Part shown: one piece after another, positions 26,299 to 42,904 of the stretch
Numbering within the stretch: the stretch's first letter is position 1
How the letters are laid out: every line of letters begins with the position of its first letter
From: Parcubacteria group bacterium GW2011_GWF2_45_11
GTDB lineage: Bacteria; Patescibacteriota; Patescibacteriia; UBA1558; UBA10009
Assembly (NCBI GenBank): GCA_001001205.1
Contig: LCKE01000015.1
Coordinates: forward strand, 1-43,298
Reading direction: 5' to 3'
Length of the DNA: 43,298 nucleotides
Notes under the pieces: model-generated
Databases searched by the model: none
What the model was told of the DNA's origin: nothing
The model's input: only the letters and a program-made list of their open reading frames with translations
Position numbers and translations under genes: made by a program

Positions 26299-26333
26299 GA
26301 ACAGATAATGGCTGGCTATATTTTACGACGCCG

Positions 26334-26342
26334 TGATATAAT
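26334..26342 (+). promoter_or_regulatory. extended -10 promoter (TGaTATAAT) for the recombinase gene
   Basis: TGATATAAT at 26334-26342. It lies inside the 5' extension of the long ORF, which argues for the internal start at 26425. Confidence 0.4.
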
Positions 26343-26424
26343 AGAAAGTGAAACTAGGAAACATATCCGTCCGACTCGTTGTCGTGGCAAGCGGGCATGT
26401 TACGTATTGCATCCTACATTCTTT

Positions 26425-27255
26425 ATGCAAAAATACTTTAATTACCTCAAGAGCCGGGGCTTAAGCCAGCGAACCGTCCGCAACTACCGTTTTTATTTAG
26501 CAAGGTTTTTTAACTTTGCCAAAATCGCCAATGGTTCGGACATTACGGTCGCAAAAATCACCGCTTTTACCCGTTATTTAAGCCAAATACAAATCAATCA
26601 TCGGCCTTTAAGCCAGTTGACCAGAAATTACCATCTGATCGCCTTAAGGTCATTGTTAAAATACCTGGAGCAGCAAAAACTTCCCAAACTGCCGGCGGCC
26701 AAAACCGTGGTCTTGGCCAAAACCGAGCGCCGTCCGCAGACCTTGATTAACGCTGACCTCAACAAACTCCTGGCCGCTCCCCTAAAATTCAATAACCCCA
26801 AAATCGTCAAAAGCCGCGACAAGGCGATTCTGGAACTGCTTTTTGCCACCGGCTTAAAAGTCAGTCGCCTGAGCGGGCTGACAAGGTCATGCCTTAACCG
26901 AGTTACGGGACACCTTAAAGCCAGTTCAAAAAAATGCCAGCTGTCGCATCAGGCGCTTTACTGGCTCAAGGAATATCTTAATTTACGCACAGACAACCAT
27001 CCGGCTTTATTCTTAAGCCACGACCGGGCCGCCCGGAGACGGAGCAAAATCAGCAACCTCAGCCCCCGCTCGGTCCAAAGGCTGGTGGAAAAGTACGCCA
27101 AATCCGCCGGGCTTAATAAAAAAATCACCCCCGAGACCTTAAGACGCGCCTATGCCAACCGGCTGCTCGGCCTAGGGCTGAACGTTCAAGAACTGCAAAA
27201 AAAGCTGGGACACCGTTCAATCAACGCCACCAATCTGATGTATAAGAAAAAATAA
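26425..27255 (+). CDS. tyrosine site-specific recombinase, XerC/XerD-like
   Basis: SAM-like N-domain (YLKSRGLSQRTVRNYRFYLARFF). Catalytic C-domain with ...LRRAYANRLL..., LGHRSINATNLMY (R..H-x-x-R..Y pattern). The ORF is open from 26308 but the first 39 aa look non-native. Confidence 0.85.
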   Translation: MQKYFNYLKSRGLSQRTVRNYRFYLARFFNFAKIANGSDITVAKITAFTRYLSQIQINHRPLSQLTRNYHLIALRSLLKYLEQQKLPKLPAAKTVVLAKTERRPQTLINADLNKLLAAPLKFNNPKIVKSRDKAILELLFATGLKVSRLSGLTRSCLNRVTGHLKASSKKCQLSHQALYWLKEYLNLRTDNHPALFLSHDRAARRRSKISNLSPRSVQRLVEKYAKSAGLNKKITPETLRRAYANRLLGLGLNVQELQKKLGHRSINATNLMYKKK

Positions 27256-28010: not shown

Positions 28011-28492
28011 CCCCGAGCTTACGCTCGGGGTATTAGCCGAACGCAAGCTTCGCTTGTCCAGAGTCCTCTTGCCCCTGCTGCTCAATATATCGCCTAATAA
28101 CCTTCAGACCAGACGCTGTCGGTGCCCCAATAGGCCTCTTTGACGAACGGGAATTTTTGCTTCAATGATTTGGCGGTATTGCTCTTTATTATCCTGACCG
28201 CATTACCCACTGACATCGTGGGAGGAATGGAGACCAAAAGGTGAATATGGTCAAAATCGTGATTAACCGTCTTACAGCTAATTAGTGGGTAATGCTTGTG
28301 AATTTCATCAAGCTTGGTCTCCAAATAGGCAAAAATTCCCTCGTTAAATATCCTCTTTCGATATTTAGTCACTAAAACAAGGTGGTAATCGCAATAGTAG
28401 ACACAATGGCTAAGTCTTGTCACTTCCATACCTTACAGTATGAGGCAAGAGGACTCTGGAATCAACTCCATCCCACGGCCTTACGGCCGGGG
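28011..28492 (-). mobile_element. IS200/IS605-family element (tnpA only), decayed
   Basis: Subterminal hairpins with an identical GTAA loop on the element strand: CCCCGAGC-GTAA-GCTCGGGG (28011-28030) and CCCCGGCC-GTAA-GGCCGTGGG (28472-28492). A 17-bp inverted repeat GGCAAGAGGACTCTGGA (28057-28073 / 28444-28460) brackets tnpA. Confidence 0.75.
28094..28429 (-). pseudogene. tnpA: IS200/IS605 Y1 (HUH) transposase TnpA, C-terminally disrupted
   Basis: HUH motif DHIHLLVSIPP is present. The frame stops after ...VWSEGY. The expected C-terminus VIRRYIEQQGQ..., with the catalytic Tyr, is readable only in another frame (about 28040-28100). About 12 codons (FVSTVG...) are missing. Confidence 0.8.
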
Positions 28493-29554: not shown

Positions 29555-29648
29555 TGGAGCCGACGGTCGGATTCGAACCGACGACCTACAGTTTATGCCG
29601 CCCTTGGCGGCACCCCGCCGAAGGCGGTGGCAAAACTGTTGCTCTACC
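29555..29648 (-). pseudogene. partial tRNA-Thr(UGU) copy A with a 35-nt insert in the anticodon loop
   Basis: The 3' half at 29555-29595 is 41/41 identical to the intact gene. The 35-nt insert is at 29596-29630. Then 18 nt, GGTAGAGCAACAGTTTTG (29631-29648). The acceptor 5' strand and D-stem 5' strand are absent. Confidence 0.85.
29596..29630 (-). repeat. 35-nt two-hairpin GC-rich mini-insert (copy in Thr-UGU fragment)
   Basis: Plus strand TGCCGCC-CTT-GGCGGCA CCCCGCC-GAA-GGCGGTGG. It is 32/35 identical to 30349-30383, and all 3 differences fall in the hairpin loops. Confidence 0.85.
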
Positions 29649-29659
29649 TGCCGAACGAC

Positions 29660-29716
29660 TGGAGCCGACGGTCGGATTCGAACCGACGACCTACAGTTTA
29701 TGCCGCCCTTGGCGGC
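29660..29716 (-). pseudogene. partial tRNA-Thr(UGU) copy B: 3' half plus one hairpin
   Basis: The 3' half at 29660-29700 is 41/41 identical. It is joined at the same anticodon-loop position to TGCCGCCCTTGGCGGC (29701-29716). It shares the trailer GTCGTTCGG with the intact gene. Confidence 0.85.
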
Positions 29717-29725
29717 CCGAACGAC

Positions 29726-29801
29726 TGGAGCCGACGGTCGGATTCGAACCGACGACCTACAGTTTACAAAACTGTTGCTCTACCAACTGAGCTACGTCGG
29801 C
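29726..29801 (-). tRNA. tRNA-Thr(UGU)
   Basis: GCCGACG TA GCTC AGTTGGTA GAGC A ACAGT TTTGTAA ACTGT AGGTC GTCGG TTCGAAT CCGAC CGTCGGC T CCA. Confidence 0.93.
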
Positions 29802-29822
29802 GACTGGCGACTGGCGGGCAGG

Positions 29823-29859
29823 CAAAACTGTTGCTCGGCAAATCAGCTTAACATATCGC
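29823..29859 (-). pseudogene. degenerate 5' half of tRNA-Thr(UGU)
   Basis: GAGCAACAGTTTTG is exact (29823-29836) and is preceded by a diverged acceptor/D-arm-like stretch. It ends at the same anticodon-loop position and abuts CCTGCCCGCCAGTCGCCAGTC and then the intact gene. Confidence 0.55.
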
Positions 29860-29979: not shown

Positions 29980-30065
29980 TGGTGGGCCGGGTAGGATTCG
30001 AACCTACGAAGGCGAAAGCCAACAGATTTACAGTCTGTCCCGTTTGACCGCTTCGGTACCGACCC
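29980..30065 (-). tRNA. tRNA-Tyr(GUA)
   Basis: 86 nt, class II with a long variable arm. Acceptor GGGTCGG/CCGGCCC, anticodon stem ACAGA/TCTGT, loop CTGTAAA, T-loop TTCGAAT, CCA encoded. Confidence 0.92.
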
Positions 30066-30075
30066 ATATAGACTT

Positions 30076-30321
30076 TTAATTTTCAATTAGCTTTTTAAAT
30101 GCTTCACCGCCTTTATATGATTTTATTCGCAACTCTCTTTTATATGCTTCTTGTTTTGTTAAATACTTTTCCTGATATATAAATTTCCAAGGTACGCCTG
30201 GTTTTGTTGATCTGACTAAACCAGCATTGTGTCTTTTCAATCTTTGCTCCAAATTACCTGTGTGACCAATATAATACTTCTTAATTGAAACACTATATAA
30301 AATGTAAACAATATACTTCAT
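30076..30321 (-). CDS. GIY-YIG nuclease-domain protein (small, catalytic domain only)
   Basis: 81 aa. Motifs YIVYILYS...KYYIGHT (GIY-YIG), RLKRHN, and the conserved Arg/Glu region (KRELRIK). Confidence 0.85.
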   Translation of the reverse strand: MKYIVYILYSVSIKKYYIGHTGNLEQRLKRHNAGLVRSTKPGVPWKFIYQEKYLTKQEAYKRELRIKSYKGGEAFKKLIEN

Positions 30322-30341: not shown

Positions 30342-30418
30342 AGATTTATGCCGCCTGTGGCGGCACCCCGCCAAAGGCGGTGGCAGTCTGTCCCGTTTGA
30401 CCGCTTCGGTACCGACCC
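30342..30418 (-). pseudogene. duplicate of tRNA-Tyr positions 1-41 interrupted by the 35-nt insert
   Basis: GGGTCGG...ACAGACTG (30418-30384), then the 35-nt insert (30383-30349), then TAAATCT (30348-30342). The tRNA-derived parts are identical to the intact gene 277 bp downstream on the same strand. Confidence 0.85.
30349..30383 (-). repeat. 35-nt two-hairpin GC-rich mini-insert (copy in Tyr fragment)
   Basis: Plus strand TGCCGCC-TGT-GGCGGCA CCCCGCC-AAA-GGCGGTGG. It sits between TTTA and CA, exactly as in the Thr-UGU copy. Confidence 0.85.
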
Positions 30419-30626
30419 TCGTTGTAATCGCGCTCCAGCCTCCGTTGCCGAATGAAATTCGGGTACTCCGGCTTACGCGCGCGCTTGCAATCTTAAGTTT
30501 GCTCAATCTAATAAATATTTTTTAAAATAACTATGCCATAATATAATATAAATCGGCTAAAAAATCAAGAGGATTAAATATAAAACCCAGATTTACTGGG
30601 CGTTATGGCAATACCTGCTAATTAAC

Positions 30627-30724
30627 TGGAGCCGATGTGCGGACTTGAACCGCGGACCTACTCCTTACTCCGCCTACACCCCTTGTTTTGCTTGGGGTTT
30701 CGGCGGACAGGCATGGAGTTGCTC
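30627..30724 (-). pseudogene. partial tRNA-Thr(GGU) copy with a 44-nt insert in the anticodon loop
   Basis: The 3' part at 30627-30668 is 41/42 identical to the intact gene. A 44-nt hairpin insert TCCGCC...GGCGGA-CAGGC lies at 30669-30712. Then ATGGAGTTGCTC (30713-30724). The acceptor 5' strand and D-loop are absent. Confidence 0.8.
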
Positions 30725-30741
30725 CCCGCCTGCCGATCGCC

Positions 30742-30817
30742 TGGAGCCGATGTGCGGACTTGAACCGCAGACCTACTCCTTACCATGGAGTTGCTCTACC
30801 AACTGAGCTACATCGGC
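30742..30817 (-). tRNA. tRNA-Thr(GGU)
   Basis: GCCGATG TA GCTC AGTTGGTA GAGC A ACTCC ATGGTAA GGAGT AGGTC TGCGG TTCAAGT CCGCA CATCGGC T CCA. Confidence 0.93.
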
Positions 30818-30838
30818 GCCCGGAGACTGGCGGGCAGG

Positions 30839-30859
30839 TACTAACTGAGCTACAACGGC
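30839..30859 (-). pseudogene. orphan tRNA 5' fragment (acceptor strand plus D-stem/loop)
   Basis: GCCGTTGTAGCTCAGTTAGTA is 19/21 identical to the Thr-GGU 5' end. It stops after D-loop ...GTA and abuts CCTGCCCGCCAGTCTCCGGGC and then the intact gene. Confidence 0.65.
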
Positions 30860-30971: not shown

Positions 30972-31868
30972 TTATAATTCTTCTATCCTTTTCTTAAAAT
31001 CATCCAGCTTTTGATTTTCCGGATTAGCCTCGGCTAATTGCCTCAAAGCCTTGCGTGCGGCAACTTTATCTTGAAGTATTATACTGATCTCTATCAAAAA
31101 GTCAAGAATCTTGGGATTTTTCGGCTCTTGCGTCACCGCCTGGGTAATAACTTCAAACGCCTTATTCGGCTCATCCAGGTTTAAATAAACCTGAGCCAGG
31201 TTTAAATAAACCGAAATGTCCTTGCTGTTTAACTGTAATGACTTTAAATACTTATCCTCGGCCGTTTTTAAATCGCCGCGATCAACGGAAATTTCGCCTA
31301 AACTTTGGTAAACAAAAGGATCGGCGTCGTCTAAAATCATTAAAAATTCAAAAGTCTCTTTGGCGTGTTCATAATCTTTCTGCAACAAATAAAGCCGGCC
31401 TAAACCTTTATAAGCCTCAACGTTCTTTTCGTCTAAAGTTAAAGCTTCTATATATTTCTTTTCCGCCTCCTGGTACTTTTCCTCGTCAGTCAGCTGTTCC
31501 GCCTCTTTGATAATTTCATCATTTTTTTGCTCCTGCATCACCTTATCCTTAAAACTTGACTGCAAAACTTTATGACGGTAATCTTCCTCCAAATCCACCA
31601 ACTTCTGATATCCCTGCCTCAGCTTTAAGCCTAAGTGATTAAAGGCCGGTTTTAAAAAAACCCACAGCTTGGCGCCGCCGTCCCTCAGCCGGCGCTCCAG
31701 CCTTTGCCTGATCAGCTGCTGTTTGATGGTCATTTGCTGAATCACAGGCGAGGCTTTAGGATTAACGGATTTAACCGCCGGCAACTTACGCGCCGCGATG
31801 TAGATAATCACGCCCAAACACAAGACGATTATTAAAATGATAAAAGGGGTAAACATATAATTATTCAA
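30972..31868 (-). CDS. TPR-repeat protein with N-terminal membrane anchor
   Basis: 298 aa. TM helix FTPFIILIIVLCLGVIIYIAA and several TPR-like 34-aa units (AYKGLGRLYLLQKDYEHAKETFE, VYLNLAQVYLNLDEPNKAFE). Confidence 0.8.
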   Translation of the reverse strand: MNNYMFTPFIILIIVLCLGVIIYIAARKLPAVKSVNPKASPVIQQMTIKQQLIRQRLERRLRDGGAKLWVFLKPAFNHLGLKLRQGYQKLVDLEEDYRHKVLQSSFKDKVMQEQKNDEIIKEAEQLTDEEKYQEAEKKYIEALTLDEKNVEAYKGLGRLYLLQKDYEHAKETFEFLMILDDADPFVYQSLGEISVDRGDLKTAEDKYLKSLQLNSKDISVYLNLAQVYLNLDEPNKAFEVITQAVTQEPKNPKILDFLIEISIILQDKVAARKALRQLAEANPENQKLDDFKKRIEEL

Positions 31869-42810: not shown

Positions 42811-42904
42811 TGGCTCCGAGACCTAGAATCGAACTAGGATCGCTGCATTAACAGTGCAGGGTTTCCTGTCTGCCGGCAGGCAGGTACCAATAAACTATCT
42901 CGGA
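42811..42904 (-). tRNA. second tRNA-Asn(GUU)-like gene carrying a 20-nt hairpin insert in the D-loop (function uncertain)
   Basis: TCCGAGA TA GTTT ATTGGTA [CCTGCCTGCCGGCAGACAGG] AAAC C CTGCA CTGTTAA TGCAG CGAT CCTAG TTCGATT CTAGG TCTCGGA G CCA. The cloverleaf is perfect once 42865-42884 is removed. Confidence 0.7.

What the first reader, a model, noticed from the sequence alone, without database searches (positions are those of the whole stretch)
29555..29859. tRNA-Thr(UGU) nested in an array of its own halves, all broken at one anticodon-loop position
Order on the minus strand:
1. Decayed 5' half ending ...GAGCAACAGTTTTG.
2. CCTGCCCGCCAGTCGCCAGTC.
3. Intact tRNA-Thr(UGU).
4. Trailer GTCGTTCGG.
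5. Hairpin GCCGCCAAGGGCGGCA.
6. 3' half, 41/41 identical to the intact gene.
7. Trailer GTCGTTCGGCA.
8. GGTAGAGCAACAGTTTTG.
9. 35-nt two-hairpin insert.
10. 3' half, 41/41 identical.
11. A different trailer.

Every junction falls between UUUG and UAA of the anticodon loop. The intact gene therefore sits where the insert would be in a broken outer copy.

Three explanations seem possible:
- (a) Scars of serial site-specific integration at an anticodon-loop att site. Only the outermost 3' half keeps a distinct trailer, as expected for an original attR.
- (b) Hairpin elements that transpose into loops of single-stranded DNA.
- (c) Least likely: tRNA pieces that are really processed.

The perfect identity of the 3' halves, against the decayed 5' half, is not what neutral decay predicts.
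Basis: seen in the sequence. Interest (0 to 1): 0.85.

Follow-up and report, generated by a model that had tools for sequence, protein, structure and literature searches.

The report
tRNA halves left by nuclease cassettes
The broken tRNA-Thr copies are real and carry a 35-base double hairpin that is conserved in many ultra-small (CPR) bacteria; they look like footprints of small GIY-YIG nuclease gene cassettes that split tRNA genes at a loop while an intact copy stays next door, a system that seems not to have been described.

Summary
**Observation.** The base structure recurs in 16 independent assemblies. Only the 66-nt middle unit is unique to this window.

**More than one array.**
- tRNA-Thr(GGU) and tRNA-Tyr, a few hundred bases upstream on the minus strand, show the same anatomy.
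- The 35-nt insert (E35: CCACCGCCnnnGGCGGGGTGCCGCCnnnGGCGGCA) sits at the same YG|WAAA anticodon-loop site in 33 other genome loci. Most are Patescibacteria, and in all but one (cut by a contig end) an intact tRNA copy lies alongside.
- In 22 of those 33 loci an 80-aa UPF0213/Slx1-like GIY-YIG nuclease gene is directly attached.
- GIY-YIG homologues chosen without regard to E35, including two in the complete genome of cultured Melioribacter roseus, also abut tRNA genes, broken tRNA pieces and GC hairpins.
- One strain of the window's species carries a 102-nt foreign patch exactly at the E35/GIY junction.

**Best reading (confidence about 0.55).** These are footprints of tRNA-targeting GIY-YIG/hairpin cassettes. 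The Thr(UGU) array is a nuclease-less derivative expanded by unequal recombination. Integrase scars and processed split tRNAs are not supported. Autonomous hairpin transposition remains a rival.

**Novelty and limits.** New variant of a known kind. The mechanism is inferred, not shown.

The parts
29823..29839 (-). Decayed outer 5' fragment of tRNA-Thr(UGU): GCC + GAGCAACAGTTTTG, ending at G35
   Evidence: 14-nt exact match to tRNA positions 22-35; sequence read
29802..29822 (-). Leader CCTGCCCGCCAGTCGCCAGTC. It is the 5' strand of an imperfect leader/trailer helix around the intact gene and a paralogue of the Thr(GGU) leader
   Evidence: Its first 14 nt are identical to the Thr(GGU) leader. 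The same leader/trailer occurs in L041 and L048
29726..29801 (-). Intact tRNA-Thr(UGU), CCA encoded
   Evidence: ARAGORN; Rfam RF00005, 78 bits
29701..29725 (-). Trailer GTCGTTCGG plus single hairpin GCCGCCAAGGGCGGCA. Together with the next 3' half it forms the 66-nt unit seen only in this window
29660..29700 (-). 3' half copy (positions 36-76), 41/41 identical to the intact gene
29631..29659 (-). Trailer GTCGTTCGGCA plus partial 5' half GGTAGAGCAACAGTTTTG (positions 18-35)
29596..29630 (-). E35, the conserved 35-nt double-hairpin element CCACCGCCTTCGGCGGGGTGCCGCCAAGGGCGGCA, inserted at G35|U36
   Evidence: The same element is found in 44 genome loci and in an unbiased metagenome sample. Fold: -29.8 kcal/mol, z = -4.2
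29555..29595 (-). Outermost 3' half copy, 41/41 identical, followed by a different trailer (GAATG...)
30384..30418 (-). Pseudo 5' half of tRNA-Tyr(GUA), 35/35 identical to the intact gene, ending at G34
30342..30383 (-). E35 copy (93% identical to the Thr copy; differences in the hairpin loops only) plus TAAATCT, the first 7 nt of the Tyr 3' half
   Evidence: repeat family D6
30076..30321 (-). GIY-YIG nuclease gene (81 aa, catalytic domain only, UPF0213/Slx1-like), lying between the pseudo Tyr half and the intact tRNA-Tyr
   Evidence: Pfam PF01541, E = 6.7e-15. PDB relatives 1zg2, 1ywl and SLX1. Conserved next to E35 in 22 loci
29980..30065 (-). Intact tRNA-Tyr(GUA)
30818..30859 (-). Outer pseudo 5' fragment of tRNA-Thr(GGU) (positions 1-21, 2 mismatches) plus leader CCTGCCCGCCAGTCTCCGGGC
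   Evidence: Homologous nests occur in L041, L048, L025, L066 and L097
30742..30817 (-). Intact tRNA-Thr(GGU), nested in the D-loop of the outer pseudo copy
30627..30741 (-). Four consecutive pieces: trailer GGCGATCGGCAGGCGGG; outer positions 22-34 (GAGCAACTCCATG); a 43-nt long-hairpin insert at G34|G35; and an outer 3' half (42 nt, 1 mismatch)

Best explanation
**What it is.** The array is the footprint of a family of small mobile cassettes that target tRNA genes.
- A full cassette carries an ~80-aa GIY-YIG (UPF0213/Slx1-like) nuclease gene.
- GC-rich hairpin modules bound it. The best conserved is the 35-nt double hairpin E35.
- The cassette sits in a loop of a tRNA gene, most often the anticodon loop at YG|WAAA. 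A whole tRNA, or the displaced half, is duplicated beside it.
- One intact gene therefore survives next to a dead half.

**How it probably spreads.** It probably spreads or is renewed by break-induced recombination. The conserved tRNA halves would serve as homology arms.

**How this applies to the window.**
- tRNA-Tyr carries the full version: pseudo 5' half, E35, GIY-YIG gene, intact tRNA.
- tRNA-Thr(GGU) and tRNA-Thr(UGU) carry nuclease-less versions. An intact gene, closed by a leader/trailer helix, is nested in a broken outer copy.
- At Thr(UGU) the 105-nt unit (3' half, trailer, partial 5' half, E35) has been amplified by unequal crossing-over. Gene conversion with the selected gene keeps the copies identical.

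**Shown:** the anatomy, its recurrence, the linkage to the GIY-YIG gene, the copy-number variation, and sequence exchange between lineages at the junction.

**Inferred:** that the GIY-YIG protein makes the break, that E35 is its cis element, and that spread is by homing rather than transposition.
For: **1. Same anatomy at three neighbouring tRNA genes**.

**2. E35 distribution.**
- E35 was found in 44 genome loci. In 33 of them it sits in a tRNA context at the same site: Tyr G34|U35, Thr(UGU) and Thr(CGU) G35|U36, Ser(UGA) G35|A36.
- In 32 of the 33 an intact tRNA lies within about 450 nt; the exception (L059) is cut by a contig end.

**3. Linkage to the GIY-YIG gene.**
- A GIY-YIG gene lies within about 400 nt of E35 in 22 of the 33 loci.
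- There are three circularly permuted layouts: pseudo 5' half-E35-GIY-tRNA; GIY-tRNA-E35-3' half; tRNA-GIY-E35-3' half.

**4. Sample anchored on tRNA-Tyr rather than on E35**.
- 10 of 11 distinct inserts are followed by a GIY-YIG gene. The eleventh is cut by a contig end.
- None of 22 uninterrupted tRNA-Tyr loci has a GIY-YIG gene next to tRNA-Tyr.

**5. GIY-YIG homologues picked without regard to E35 all abut a tRNA gene with broken pieces and hairpins.**
- Melioribacter roseus complete genome: two and a half tandem [pseudo tRNA-Ser 5' half-GIY] units before the intact tRNA-Ser(GCU), broken after GGTTTG in the anticodon loop.
- A second Melioribacter species shows the same locus.
- L102, L103 and L105 show it too. 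In L103 the cassette with tRNA-Ser(CGA) is nested in a different resident tRNA-Ser.

**6. Outer and inner tRNA alleles differ** in L041, L059, L022, L062 and L103.

**7. Exchange between lineages.**
- Strain L012 of the window's species shares a 141-nt exact match with a Falkowbacteria lineage that is otherwise about 69% identical.
- The match runs from the tRNA-Tyr 5' half across E35 into the GIY start.
- That leaves a 102-nt foreign patch bounded by 28 nt and 11 nt of shared sequence.

**8. Structural polymorphism within the population:** 1, at least 2, or at least 3 units; a 76-nt deletion of E35 plus the GIY start in L016.
Against: - No nuclease activity or target has been shown.
- The 81-aa protein is a bare catalytic domain. 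It lacks the DNA-binding domain of known GIY-YIG homing enzymes.
- GIY-YIG identity to the window's protein roughly tracks that of ribosomal protein L33 across genomes. That fits long vertical residence better than frequent horizontal homing.
- The intact tRNA, and so any target site in it, persists in cassette-bearing genomes. Immunity is unexplained.
- The Thr(UGU) array itself contains no GIY-YIG gene or remnant.
- E35 also occurs in 8 intergenic, non-tRNA, GIY-less places in other phyla.
- E35 was not found in viral contigs.
Confidence: 0.55

Rival explanations
1. **Autonomous hairpin mini-elements.** The hairpins are REP/PATE-like elements that insert into single-stranded loops. A hairpin-binding transposase, such as an IS200/IS605 TnpA acting in trans, would mobilise them. 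They are tolerated only in redundant tRNA copies that arose by ordinary tandem duplication. The GIY-YIG gene would be a bystander.
For: - E35 is a discrete element with fixed ends and a YG|WAAA flank.
- It also occurs in non-tRNA intergenic sites.
- Related hairpins occupy D-, anticodon- and T-loops.
- A second two-hairpin element is nested in the E35 hairpin-1 loop in L012 and L076 but not in other strains.
- An IS200-like Y1 TnpA pseudogene lies 1.1 kb away.
Against: - No TnpA homologue is present in any of the 44 E35 loci.
- The window's IS has different hairpins.
- Exact E35 copies number 4 or fewer per genome, so the element is not dispersed.
- This reading does not explain why the break in the tRNA copy always lies within about 3-9 nt of the hairpin.
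- It also does not explain why a GIY-YIG gene is attached in 22 of 33 loci and in 10 of 11 unbiased inserts.
Confidence: 0.15
2. **Functional structured nucleic acid.** E35 and the tRNA-like pieces would be kept by selection as RNA. Possible roles are a stabilising or processing structure for the GIY-YIG and tRNA transcripts, or a decoy for an anticodon nuclease. They would not be scars.
For: - E35 stems are nearly invariant across distant lineages while the loops vary freely.
- Hairpin 2 shows a compensatory switch, TGCCGCC/GGCGGCA to TCCCGCC/GGCGGGA.
- Leader/trailer helices around the intact tRNA-Thr(GGU) covary between species.
- Insertions respect the tRNA stems.
- There are sub-threshold tRNA (28.2 bits) and YrlA-like (30 bits) matches.
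- The Tyr break, G34|U35, coincides with the colicin E5 cleavage site (from my own knowledge; not tested).
Against: - The layouts are circularly permuted, so E35 is sometimes 5' and sometimes 3' of the GIY-YIG gene or the tRNA.
- Copy number varies within one population.
- The pieces are truncated at different points.
- Complementarity of palindrome arms can be maintained at the DNA level by template switching.
- No expression data are available.
Confidence: 0.12
3. **Plain tandem duplication.** The tRNA genes duplicated in tandem and the copies then decayed by independent deletions. The hairpins would be ordinary terminators, and no dedicated mobile agent would be involved.
For: - The 105-nt unit behaves as a tandem repeat with variable copy number.
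- tRNA-Thr(UGU) is tandemly duplicated in L032.
Against: - The same break point and the same 35-nt element recur in at least 33 genomes and four tRNA species.
- Outer and inner alleles differ.
- A foreign patch is present in L012.
- The hairpins are not followed by T runs.
Confidence: 0.08
4. **Integrase scars.** These would be attL/attR-type scars left by serial integration and loss of integrase-encoding elements at a tRNA att site.
For: - Direct repeats of a tRNA 3' half flank inserted DNA. Only the outermost copy has a distinct trailer.
- A tyrosine recombinase gene lies at 26308-27255.
Against: - The inserted segments are 25-64 nt long.
- The recombinase lies 2.3 kb away beside other tRNAs and has no homologue in the other loci.
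- Elsewhere 5' halves are duplicated as often as 3' halves.
- Breaks also occur in D- and T-loops next to hairpins.
Confidence: 0.04
5. **Assembly artefact** caused by the repeats.
For: - Several contigs end inside the array (L004, L005), and one scaffold has an N gap there.
- The 66-nt unit is unique to the window.
Against: - The base structure is identical in 12 assemblies made from different samples with different assemblers.
- Analogous arrays exist in the finished genome of a cultured bacterium.
Confidence: 0.03

Closest known systems
Free-standing GIY-YIG homing endonucleases in tRNA gene clusters (phage T4 SegB; PMC2330249)
   Same: A GIY-YIG nuclease gene sits among tRNA genes. The neighbouring tRNA region is inherited together with it. 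Recombination tracts are anchored in conserved tRNA sequence.
   Different: - The protein here has 81 aa and no DNA-binding domain. It belongs to the UPF0213/Slx1-like branch.
- The setting is cellular, not phage.
- The target tRNA is split, and a duplicate half or whole tRNA is kept.
- Conserved hairpin modules mark the junctions.
- Cleavage has not been demonstrated.
Integrative elements that use tRNA genes as att sites and restore the gene with their own copy of the 3' end
   Same: Insertion at or near the anticodon loop. An intact gene is regenerated and a partial duplicate is left behind.
   Different: - No integrase is present.
- The inserted DNA is tens to a few hundred bases long.
- Either half may be the duplicated one.
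- The junctions carry hairpins.
REP/REPIN elements with their RAYT transposase, and IS200/IS605 palindrome-associated elements
   Same: - Short GC-rich hairpin pairs are conserved in structure.
- They flank a single-copy nuclease gene that is inherited largely vertically.
- Insertion occurs without target duplication next to a short motif.
   Different: - The associated enzyme is a GIY-YIG nuclease, not an HUH tyrosine transposase.
- Copy number is very low.
- The sites are loops of tRNA genes.
Double-hairpin elements of Allomyces mitochondrial DNA (Paquin et al. 2000, as cited in PMC3787672), and mitochondrial mobile endonuclease ORFs that carry a replacement gene end (the latter from my own knowledge)
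   Same: Two adjacent GC-rich hairpins show evidence of mobility. An endonuclease insertion leaves a partial duplicate of the invaded gene.
   Different: Those are organellar and invade protein-coding genes. No sequence relationship was tested here.
Split, permuted and multi-intron tRNA genes of Archaea (reviewed in PMC4390854 and PMC4033280)
   Same: tRNA genes are interrupted in the anticodon, D- or T-loops. GC-rich complementary sequences lie at the breaks.
   Different: Here an intact copy lies alongside in all but one locus cut by a contig end, the pieces are incomplete, and no bulge-helix-bulge motif was seen. Nothing indicates that the pieces are joined.

Membership tests
GIY-YIG homing endonuclease (SegB / I-TevI type) | GIY-YIG catalytic domain | tested here: met
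   Pfam PF01541, E = 6.7e-15, 55.6 bits against a cut-off of 22.6
GIY-YIG homing endonuclease (SegB / I-TevI type) | A separate DNA-binding domain that gives long-site specificity | tested here: not met
   The protein has 81 aa and a single domain. NCBIfam group I intron endonuclease scores only 16.8 bits against a cut-off of 56. The nearest solved structures are UPF0213 proteins and the SLX1 nuclease domain
GIY-YIG homing endonuclease (SegB / I-TevI type) | Site-specific cleavage of the allele that lacks the gene | not testable with these tools
   Needs a biochemical or genetic assay
GIY-YIG homing endonuclease (SegB / I-TevI type) | Presence/absence polymorphism at a fixed site, with co-conversion of flanks | tested here: inconclusive
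   The cassette is present or absent at tRNA-Tyr across species, and L012 carries a 102-nt foreign patch at the junction. No empty allele was found within the window's own species
tRNA-att integrative element scars | Integrase gene linked to the repeats | tested here: not met
   The window's recombinase has no homologue in the 44 loci, and none is adjacent here
tRNA-att integrative element scars | Direct repeats of the tRNA 3' part flanking an element | tested here: inconclusive
   Repeats of the 3' half are present, but they flank only 25-64 nt. In other genomes the 5' half is the repeated one
IS200/IS605-derived or REP/RAYT hairpin elements | HUH Y1 transposase encoded in the genome and associated with the hairpins | tested here: not met
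   A Y1_Tnp pseudogene lies at 28094-28429. It is absent from all other E35 loci, and its own end hairpins differ
IS200/IS605-derived or REP/RAYT hairpin elements | Conserved hairpin ends, and insertion next to a short motif without target duplication | tested here: met
   The ends CCA...GCA are fixed, the flank is YG|WAAA, and no duplication of flanking bases is seen
IS200/IS605-derived or REP/RAYT hairpin elements | Many dispersed copies per genome | tested here: not met
   At most 4 exact copies per genome, all within tRNA clusters. Divergent copies were not counted
Split or intron-containing tRNA gene | The pieces together make the only functional copy of that tRNA | tested here: not met
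   An intact copy lies within about 450 nt in 32 of the 33 loci; the exception (L059) is cut by a contig end. The pieces are truncated
Split or intron-containing tRNA gene | Recognised by a tRNA model with an intron | tested here: not met
   29558-29665 scores 28.2 bits against the gathering score of 29, and it lacks positions 1-17
Rfam families (any) | E35 or the array reaches a curated family threshold | tested here: not met
   Only the three intact tRNAs pass. YrlA scores 30.1 bits against 69

The most novel reading that the evidence does not exclude
The small GIY-YIG protein and the double hairpins may form a previously unrecognised kind of mobile element guided by DNA structure. It would be a functional analogue of RAYT/REPIN built on an Slx1-like nuclease.
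- The nuclease would cut at stem-loop junctions of extruded hairpins or tRNA-gene cloverleaves.
- Hairpin-closed segments, from a 3-nt loop up to a whole tRNA gene, would move into the loops of other hairpins.
- Because the element destroys the resident tRNA gene while supplying its own copy, the host would become dependent on it.
Probability: 0.2. Interest if true: 0.9.

Novelty: new variant of a known kind. Interest (0 to 1): 0.74.

Why it matters
**A function for an uncharacterised family.** If correct, a very widespread but uncharacterised protein family gains a concrete context. The stand-alone UPF0213/Slx1-like GIY-YIG nucleases are common in CPR bacteria and are also present in Ignavibacteria. 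Their context would be selfish cassettes that live in tRNA genes, with a conserved 35-nt DNA or RNA module as their hallmark.

**Annotation and assembly.** It explains tRNA fragments and odd hairpins that confuse tRNA annotation and break assemblies in CPR genomes.

**Horizontal exchange.** It shows how conserved tRNA sequence can serve as a portable homology arm for DNA exchange between distant lineages.

**An experimental system.** Cultured Melioribacter roseus carries a comparable array, so the idea can be tested at the bench.

**Evolutionary interest.** It gives a bacterial parallel to the disrupted tRNA genes of Archaea. That bears on the long-running debate over whether such genes are ancestral or are caused by mobile elements.

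Tried and rejected
**Searches that gave nothing**
- Rfam at curated thresholds and at E ≤ 1 gave only the intact tRNAs. There was also a sub-threshold tRNA hit (28.2 bits) and a weak YrlA hit. No known RNA family matches E35.
- E35 was not found in viral contigs.
- tblastn with the window's IS200 TnpA and its tyrosine recombinase against all E35 loci gave no hits. Both were dropped as agents.
- No GIY-YIG remnant was found inside or beside the Thr(UGU) array.
- No fragments of the other six tRNAs in the window were found.
- Seven literature searches found no description of this arrangement.
- The attempt to name the organism from protein clusters returned no names.

**Ideas considered and rejected**
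- Bulge-helix-bulge splicing. The junctions do not form that motif.
- Integron attC-like recombination. The flank is G|TAAA, not G|TTRRRY.
- Reverse transcription of tRNA halves. The exact tRNA boundaries of the repeats are as well explained by selection on the intact copy.
- De novo fold-back synthesis of the palindrome. E35 is conserved across species.

**A correction**
- I first misread L012 as lacking a GIY start codon. Re-alignment shows a frameshifting foreign patch instead.
Full report
**1.

On the minus strand the region reads as follows.
- A decayed 5' fragment, GCC+GAGCAACAGTTTTG (29839-29823).
- The leader CCTGCCCGCCAGTCGCCAGTC.
- The intact tRNA-Thr(UGU) at 29801-29726 (ARAGORN; Rfam, 78 bits).
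- GTCGTTCGG.
- The hairpin GCCGCCAAGGGCGGCA.
- A 3' half.
- GTCGTTCGGCA.
- GGTAGAGCAACAGTTTTG.
- The 35-nt insert CCACCGCCTTCGGCGGGGTGCCGCCAAGGGCGGCA.
- A third 3' half.
- A different trailer.

The 41-nt 3' half occurs three times with no mismatch, against 0 matches in shuffles. The two 5' pieces are exact matches to tRNA positions 18-35 and 22-35. All breaks lie between G35 and U36, inside the anticodon.

**2. It is not an isolated oddity of one gene**

Two neighbouring tRNA genes on the same strand have the same anatomy.

*tRNA-Thr(GGU), 30817-30742.*
- It is preceded by a 21-nt outer 5' fragment (positions 1-21) and a leader whose first 14 nt equal the Thr(UGU) leader.
- It is followed by GGCGATCGGCAGGCGGG, then outer positions 22-34, a 43-nt hairpin insert, and an outer 3' half with one mismatch.
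- The intact gene therefore sits inside the D-loop of a broken outer copy, and that outer copy also has an anticodon-loop insert.

*tRNA-Tyr.*
- Upstream of it lies an exact 35-nt copy of its 5' half (30418-30384), ending at G34.
- Next comes a second copy of the 35-nt insert, 93% identical, with differences only in the two hairpin loops.
- Then come TAAATCT, an 81-aa GIY-YIG gene (30321-30076; Pfam E = 6.7e-15) and, 10 nt later, the intact tRNA-Tyr.

The other six tRNAs in the window have no fragments.

**3. It is real, and its copy number varies**

The GIY-YIG and L33 proteins of the window are encoded on dozens of public contigs. Seventeen loci from NCBI, JGI and ENA assemblies were retrieved.
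- The region between the upstream TPR-repeat gene (window 30972-31868) and rpmG is almost identical in all of them.
- The number of 105-nt units differs. One unit is 3' half + GTCGTTCGGCA + 18-nt 5' piece + insert.
- Twelve assemblies have one unit. L004 has at least two. GCA_001001425.1 has at least three, with an N gap.
- The window has one unit plus a 66-nt derivative that no other assembly has.
- L016 lacks 76 nt that include the Tyr insert and the GIY start.

The array therefore behaves as an unstable tandem repeat. This also explains the perfect identity of the 3' halves. They are homogenised with one another and with the selected gene, whereas the isolated upstream 5' fragment is not.

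**4. The 35-nt insert (E35) is a conserved element with a fixed site**

*Genome scan.* A scan of one genome per species with CCGCCNNNGGCGGGGTGCCGCCNNNGGCGG gave 44 loci.
- Three are chance hits in GC-rich genomes.
- Eight are intergenic sites in other phyla, with neither a tRNA nor a GIY-YIG gene.
- Thirty-three are in tRNA clusters. Most records are labelled Patescibacteria; some labels on third-party MAGs may be unreliable.

*Position of E35 in the 33 tRNA-cluster loci*.
- ...CTG|E35|TAAATC in tRNA-Tyr (G34|U35).
- TTTTG|E35|TAAAC in Thr(UGU).
- TTCG|E35|TAAAG in Thr(CGU).
- CTTG|E35|AAAAC in Ser(UGA).
- The common site is YG|WAAA. In 32 of the 33 loci an intact tRNA lies within about 450 nt; the exception (L059) is cut by a contig end.

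*Unbiased metagenome scan.* A second scan was anchored on the tRNA-Tyr 5' half and TAAATC, and left the insert free. It gave 11 distinct inserts.
- Hairpin 1 is CCACCGCC/GGCGGGG in most of them.
- Hairpin 2 is either TGCCGCC/GGCGGCA or TCCCGCC/GGCGGGA, a compensatory change.
- The loops are 3-4 nt, or are expanded by 20-25 nt of AT-rich sequence.

*Fold.* E35 together with the anticodon stem forms a long imperfect palindrome.
- It can fold as two hairpins or as one long hairpin.
- As RNA the energy is -29.8 kcal/mol, z = -4.2.

*Known families.* No Rfam family matches it.

**5. The gene that travels with the breaks is the small GIY-YIG nuclease**

In 22 of the 33 loci a homologue lies within about 400 nt of E35. 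Three layouts occur, and they are circular permutations of one another.
- A: pseudo 5' half-E35-TAAATCT-GIY-tRNA-Tyr (the window and 13 others).
- B: GIY-tRNA-Tyr-about 16 nt-CAGACTG-E35-3' half.
- C: tRNA-Tyr-GIY-CTGACTG-E35-3' half.

L076 has A and B together.

In the unbiased Tyr sample:
- 10 of 11 inserts are followed by a GIY-YIG gene, and the eleventh is cut by a contig end;
- none of 22 uninterrupted tRNA-Tyr loci has a GIY-YIG gene next to tRNA-Tyr.

The window's IS200-like TnpA pseudogene and its tyrosine recombinase have no homologue in any of these loci.

The protein is a bare catalytic domain.
- Its nearest solved relatives are UPF0213 proteins and the SLX1 structure-specific nuclease.
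- The phylogenomic survey PMC1564403 treats prokaryotic relatives of Slx1 under its Slx1 cluster.

**6. The association holds when loci are chosen by the protein alone**

A protein search found 296 homologues. Six proteins were looked up. They fall at five distinct loci, because two of them are the tandem copies at one Melioribacter roseus locus. All five loci abut a tRNA gene with fragments and hairpins.

- *Melioribacter roseus* (cultured; complete genome CP003557.1). The order is as follows.
  - A GIY C-terminal fragment.
  - Two units, each made of a promoter-like spacer, a pseudo tRNA-Ser 5' part and a GIY gene. The pseudo part has a 36-nt double hairpin in its D-loop and is broken after GGTTTG in the anticodon loop.
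  - The same spacer and the intact tRNA-Ser(GCU).
- *A second Melioribacter species* has the same locus, with the break after GCTAAA.
- *L102* has pseudo Ser-tRNA-Ser-GIY-pseudo 3' part. In the 3' part, hairpins replace the anticodon arm and the T-arm, and the piece restarts at TAAACC.
- *L103 (Doudnabacteria)* is the cleanest nest.
  - It starts with a 14-nt resident 5' end (GGAGAGG...) and four hairpins.
  - These are followed by the GIY gene and an intact tRNA-Ser(CGA) whose acceptor is GGAAGCG.
  - It ends with two hairpins and the resident 3' end CCTCTCCGCCA.
- *L105* has hairpins, a GIY gene, tRNA-Ser(UGA) and then a second GIY gene.
- Within the E35 loci, GIY copies beside tRNA-Trp (L025) and tRNA-Arg (L022) show the same pattern.

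**7. Signs of replacement and exchange**

Outer and inner tRNA copies are often different alleles.
- L041: GTCCACC/GGTGGGC outside against GCCGATG/CATCGGC inside, while the inner leader, tRNA and trailer are 91% identical to the window's over 150 nt.
- L059, L022, L062 and L103 also differ.
- In the window, the outer Thr(GGU) 5' fragment has the acceptor GCCGTTG, which is the normal one in seven other species. With only 2 differences in 21 positions, simple decay cannot be excluded.

The strongest case is strain L012 of the window's own species.
- It is window-type on both sides.
- It shares a 141-nt exact match with the Falkowbacteria lineage L040/L076, which is otherwise about 69% identical.
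- The match runs from tRNA-Tyr position 9 through E35, including a nested 36-nt two-hairpin element that other strains lack, and through TAAATCTGTTGGCC into the ninth GIY codon.
- The foreign patch is 102 nt. It is bounded by 28 nt of shared tRNA sequence and 11 nt of shared GIY sequence, and it frameshifts the GIY gene.
- The tRNA half has therefore acted as a homology arm for exchange between lineages exactly at the cassette junction.

**8. Other structural regularities**

- Broken copies collect further GC hairpins precisely in or in place of the D-arm and the T-arm.
- On the truncated side of E35, only 3-9 nt of the anticodon stem-loop survive. E35 is therefore usually still closed by a short stem.
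- A leader/trailer helix flanks the intact tRNA-Thr(GGU), and its sequence changes between species while complementarity is kept.
  - GCCAGTCGCC/GGCGATCGGC
  - GCCAATAGCC/GGCTATTGGC
  - CCCCGCCACCTC/GAGGCGGCGGGG
  - CCCCGCTGCTTC/GAGGCAGCGGGG
  - CCCACCGGCC/GGCCGGTGGG
- Whether this reflects selection on an RNA or maintenance of palindromes at the DNA level is open.

**9. Most likely mechanism**

*Shown.* A GIY-YIG gene, hairpin modules and a duplicated tRNA or tRNA half form a recurrent unit inserted at tRNA loops. The unit varies in copy number and has exchanged sequence between lineages.

*Inferred.*
- The nuclease breaks the tRNA gene DNA at or near the loop. It may recognise structure rather than a long sequence, as Slx1 does.
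- Repair from a cassette-bearing copy uses the tRNA halves as homology arms. It copies the hairpin, the GIY gene and the duplicated half.
- This would explain layouts A and C, which are the two products expected from recombination in the 5' arm or the 3' arm.
- Later the GIY gene decays (L016, L012, and the fragments in L060 and M. roseus). What remains is a hairpin-tagged half such as those at Thr(UGU).
- Unequal crossing-over then expands the 105-nt unit.

*Weak points.*
- The enzyme has no obvious specificity domain.
- Its divergence tracks that of L33, which suggests long residence.
- The target persists in cassette-bearing genomes.
- E35 also exists in non-tRNA sites in other phyla.

**10. 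Rivals**

- Autonomous hairpin transposition explains the nested element and the non-tRNA copies. It does not explain the coupled truncations or the GIY linkage, and it has no candidate enzyme outside this window.
- A functional RNA would explain the strong conservation and the covariation. It fits poorly with permuted layouts and variable copy number.
- Integrase scars, plain duplication with decay, and misassembly are each contradicted by several results (see the rival entries).

**11. Comparison with what is known**

- The nearest described systems are listed here.
  - T4 SegB, a GIY-YIG homing enzyme in a tRNA cluster (PMC2330249).
  - Integrative elements that restore the tRNA gene they interrupt.
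  - REP/REPIN-RAYT and IS200/IS605 hairpin elements.
  - The mobile double-hairpin elements of Allomyces mitochondria (cited in PMC3787672).
- The present system fails at least one defining feature of each. It has no DNA-binding domain, no integrase, no HUH transposase and no dispersal.
- I therefore file it as a new variant of tRNA-targeting selfish nuclease cassettes, not as a member of any of these families.
- Seven full-text searches found no description of it. That library is incomplete, so prior description cannot be excluded.

Noticed in passing
window 28094-28429 (-), with flanking hairpins at about 28470-28490 and 28011-28030: An IS200-like Y1 transposase pseudogene. The reading frame breaks after ...WSEGY, and the C-terminal motif IRRYIEQQ continues in another frame. 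The element is present in some strains (L008) and replaced by a 187-aa gene in others (L009-L011).
   Followed up: partly
window 30627-30859 (-): tRNA-Thr(GGU) is nested in the D-loop of a broken outer copy, which also has a 43-nt hairpin insert in its anticodon loop. Homologous nests occur in L041, L048, L025, L066 and L097.
   Followed up: yes
L021, L026, L032, L041, L048 and L059 (flanks of tRNA-Thr(GGU)); L048 (tRNA-Trp): Intact tRNAs in these clusters are enclosed by an 8-12 bp leader/trailer helix. Its sequence differs between species but stays complementary. This could be a processing stem or a DNA palindrome.
   Followed up: partly
L100 (Melioribacter roseus CP003557.1, 2579418-2584660) and L106: Tandem [pseudo tRNA-Ser 5' half with a D-loop double hairpin - GIY-YIG gene] units lie upstream of the intact tRNA-Ser(GCU). 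They are present in a cultured organism with a finished genome and in a sister species.
   Followed up: partly
L019, L020 (Omnitrophica), L023, L035, L036, L044, L049, L055: E35 with identical stems occurs in intergenic sites with no tRNA and no GIY-YIG gene nearby. In several cases it is closed by a short flanking inverted repeat and followed by AAA.
   Followed up: partly
L012 2049-2161, compared with L076 and L040: A 36-nt two-hairpin element (TCACCGCATATTGCGGGGGCCCGCTGTAAGCGGTAA) is nested in the loop of E35 hairpin 1. It is part of a 102-nt patch shared with a Falkowbacteria lineage.
   Followed up: yes
L059 1-1100 (-): Both tRNA-Tyr copies flanking the GIY-YIG gene carry inserts in the D-loop and the anticodon loop, and one also in the T-loop. 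No intact tRNA-Tyr is visible before the contig ends.
   Followed up: no
window 29611-29716 (-): A weak match to the Y RNA-like family YrlA (30.1 bits against a gathering score of 69). It spans a hairpin, a 3' half, the partial 5' half and a hairpin. It is probably a by-product of the tRNA-like T-arm.
   Followed up: no
window 26308-27255 (+): A XerC/D-like tyrosine recombinase gene lies directly upstream of the tRNA-Arg/Arg/His cluster. It is not linked to E35 in other genomes.
   Followed up: partly
window 30585-30601 and 30540-30568 (-): A terminator-like hairpin follows the Thr(GGU) nest, and a promoter-like site lies about 120 nt upstream of the pseudo tRNA-Tyr half. This suggests that the pseudo half, E35, the GIY-YIG gene and tRNA-Tyr form one transcription unit. 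These are consensus matches only.
   Followed up: no
window 42870-42883: The palindrome CTGCCGGCAGGCAG resembles an empty version of the CCTGCC...GGCAGG leader/trailer pair. It lies about 640 nt from tRNA-Asn.
   Followed up: no
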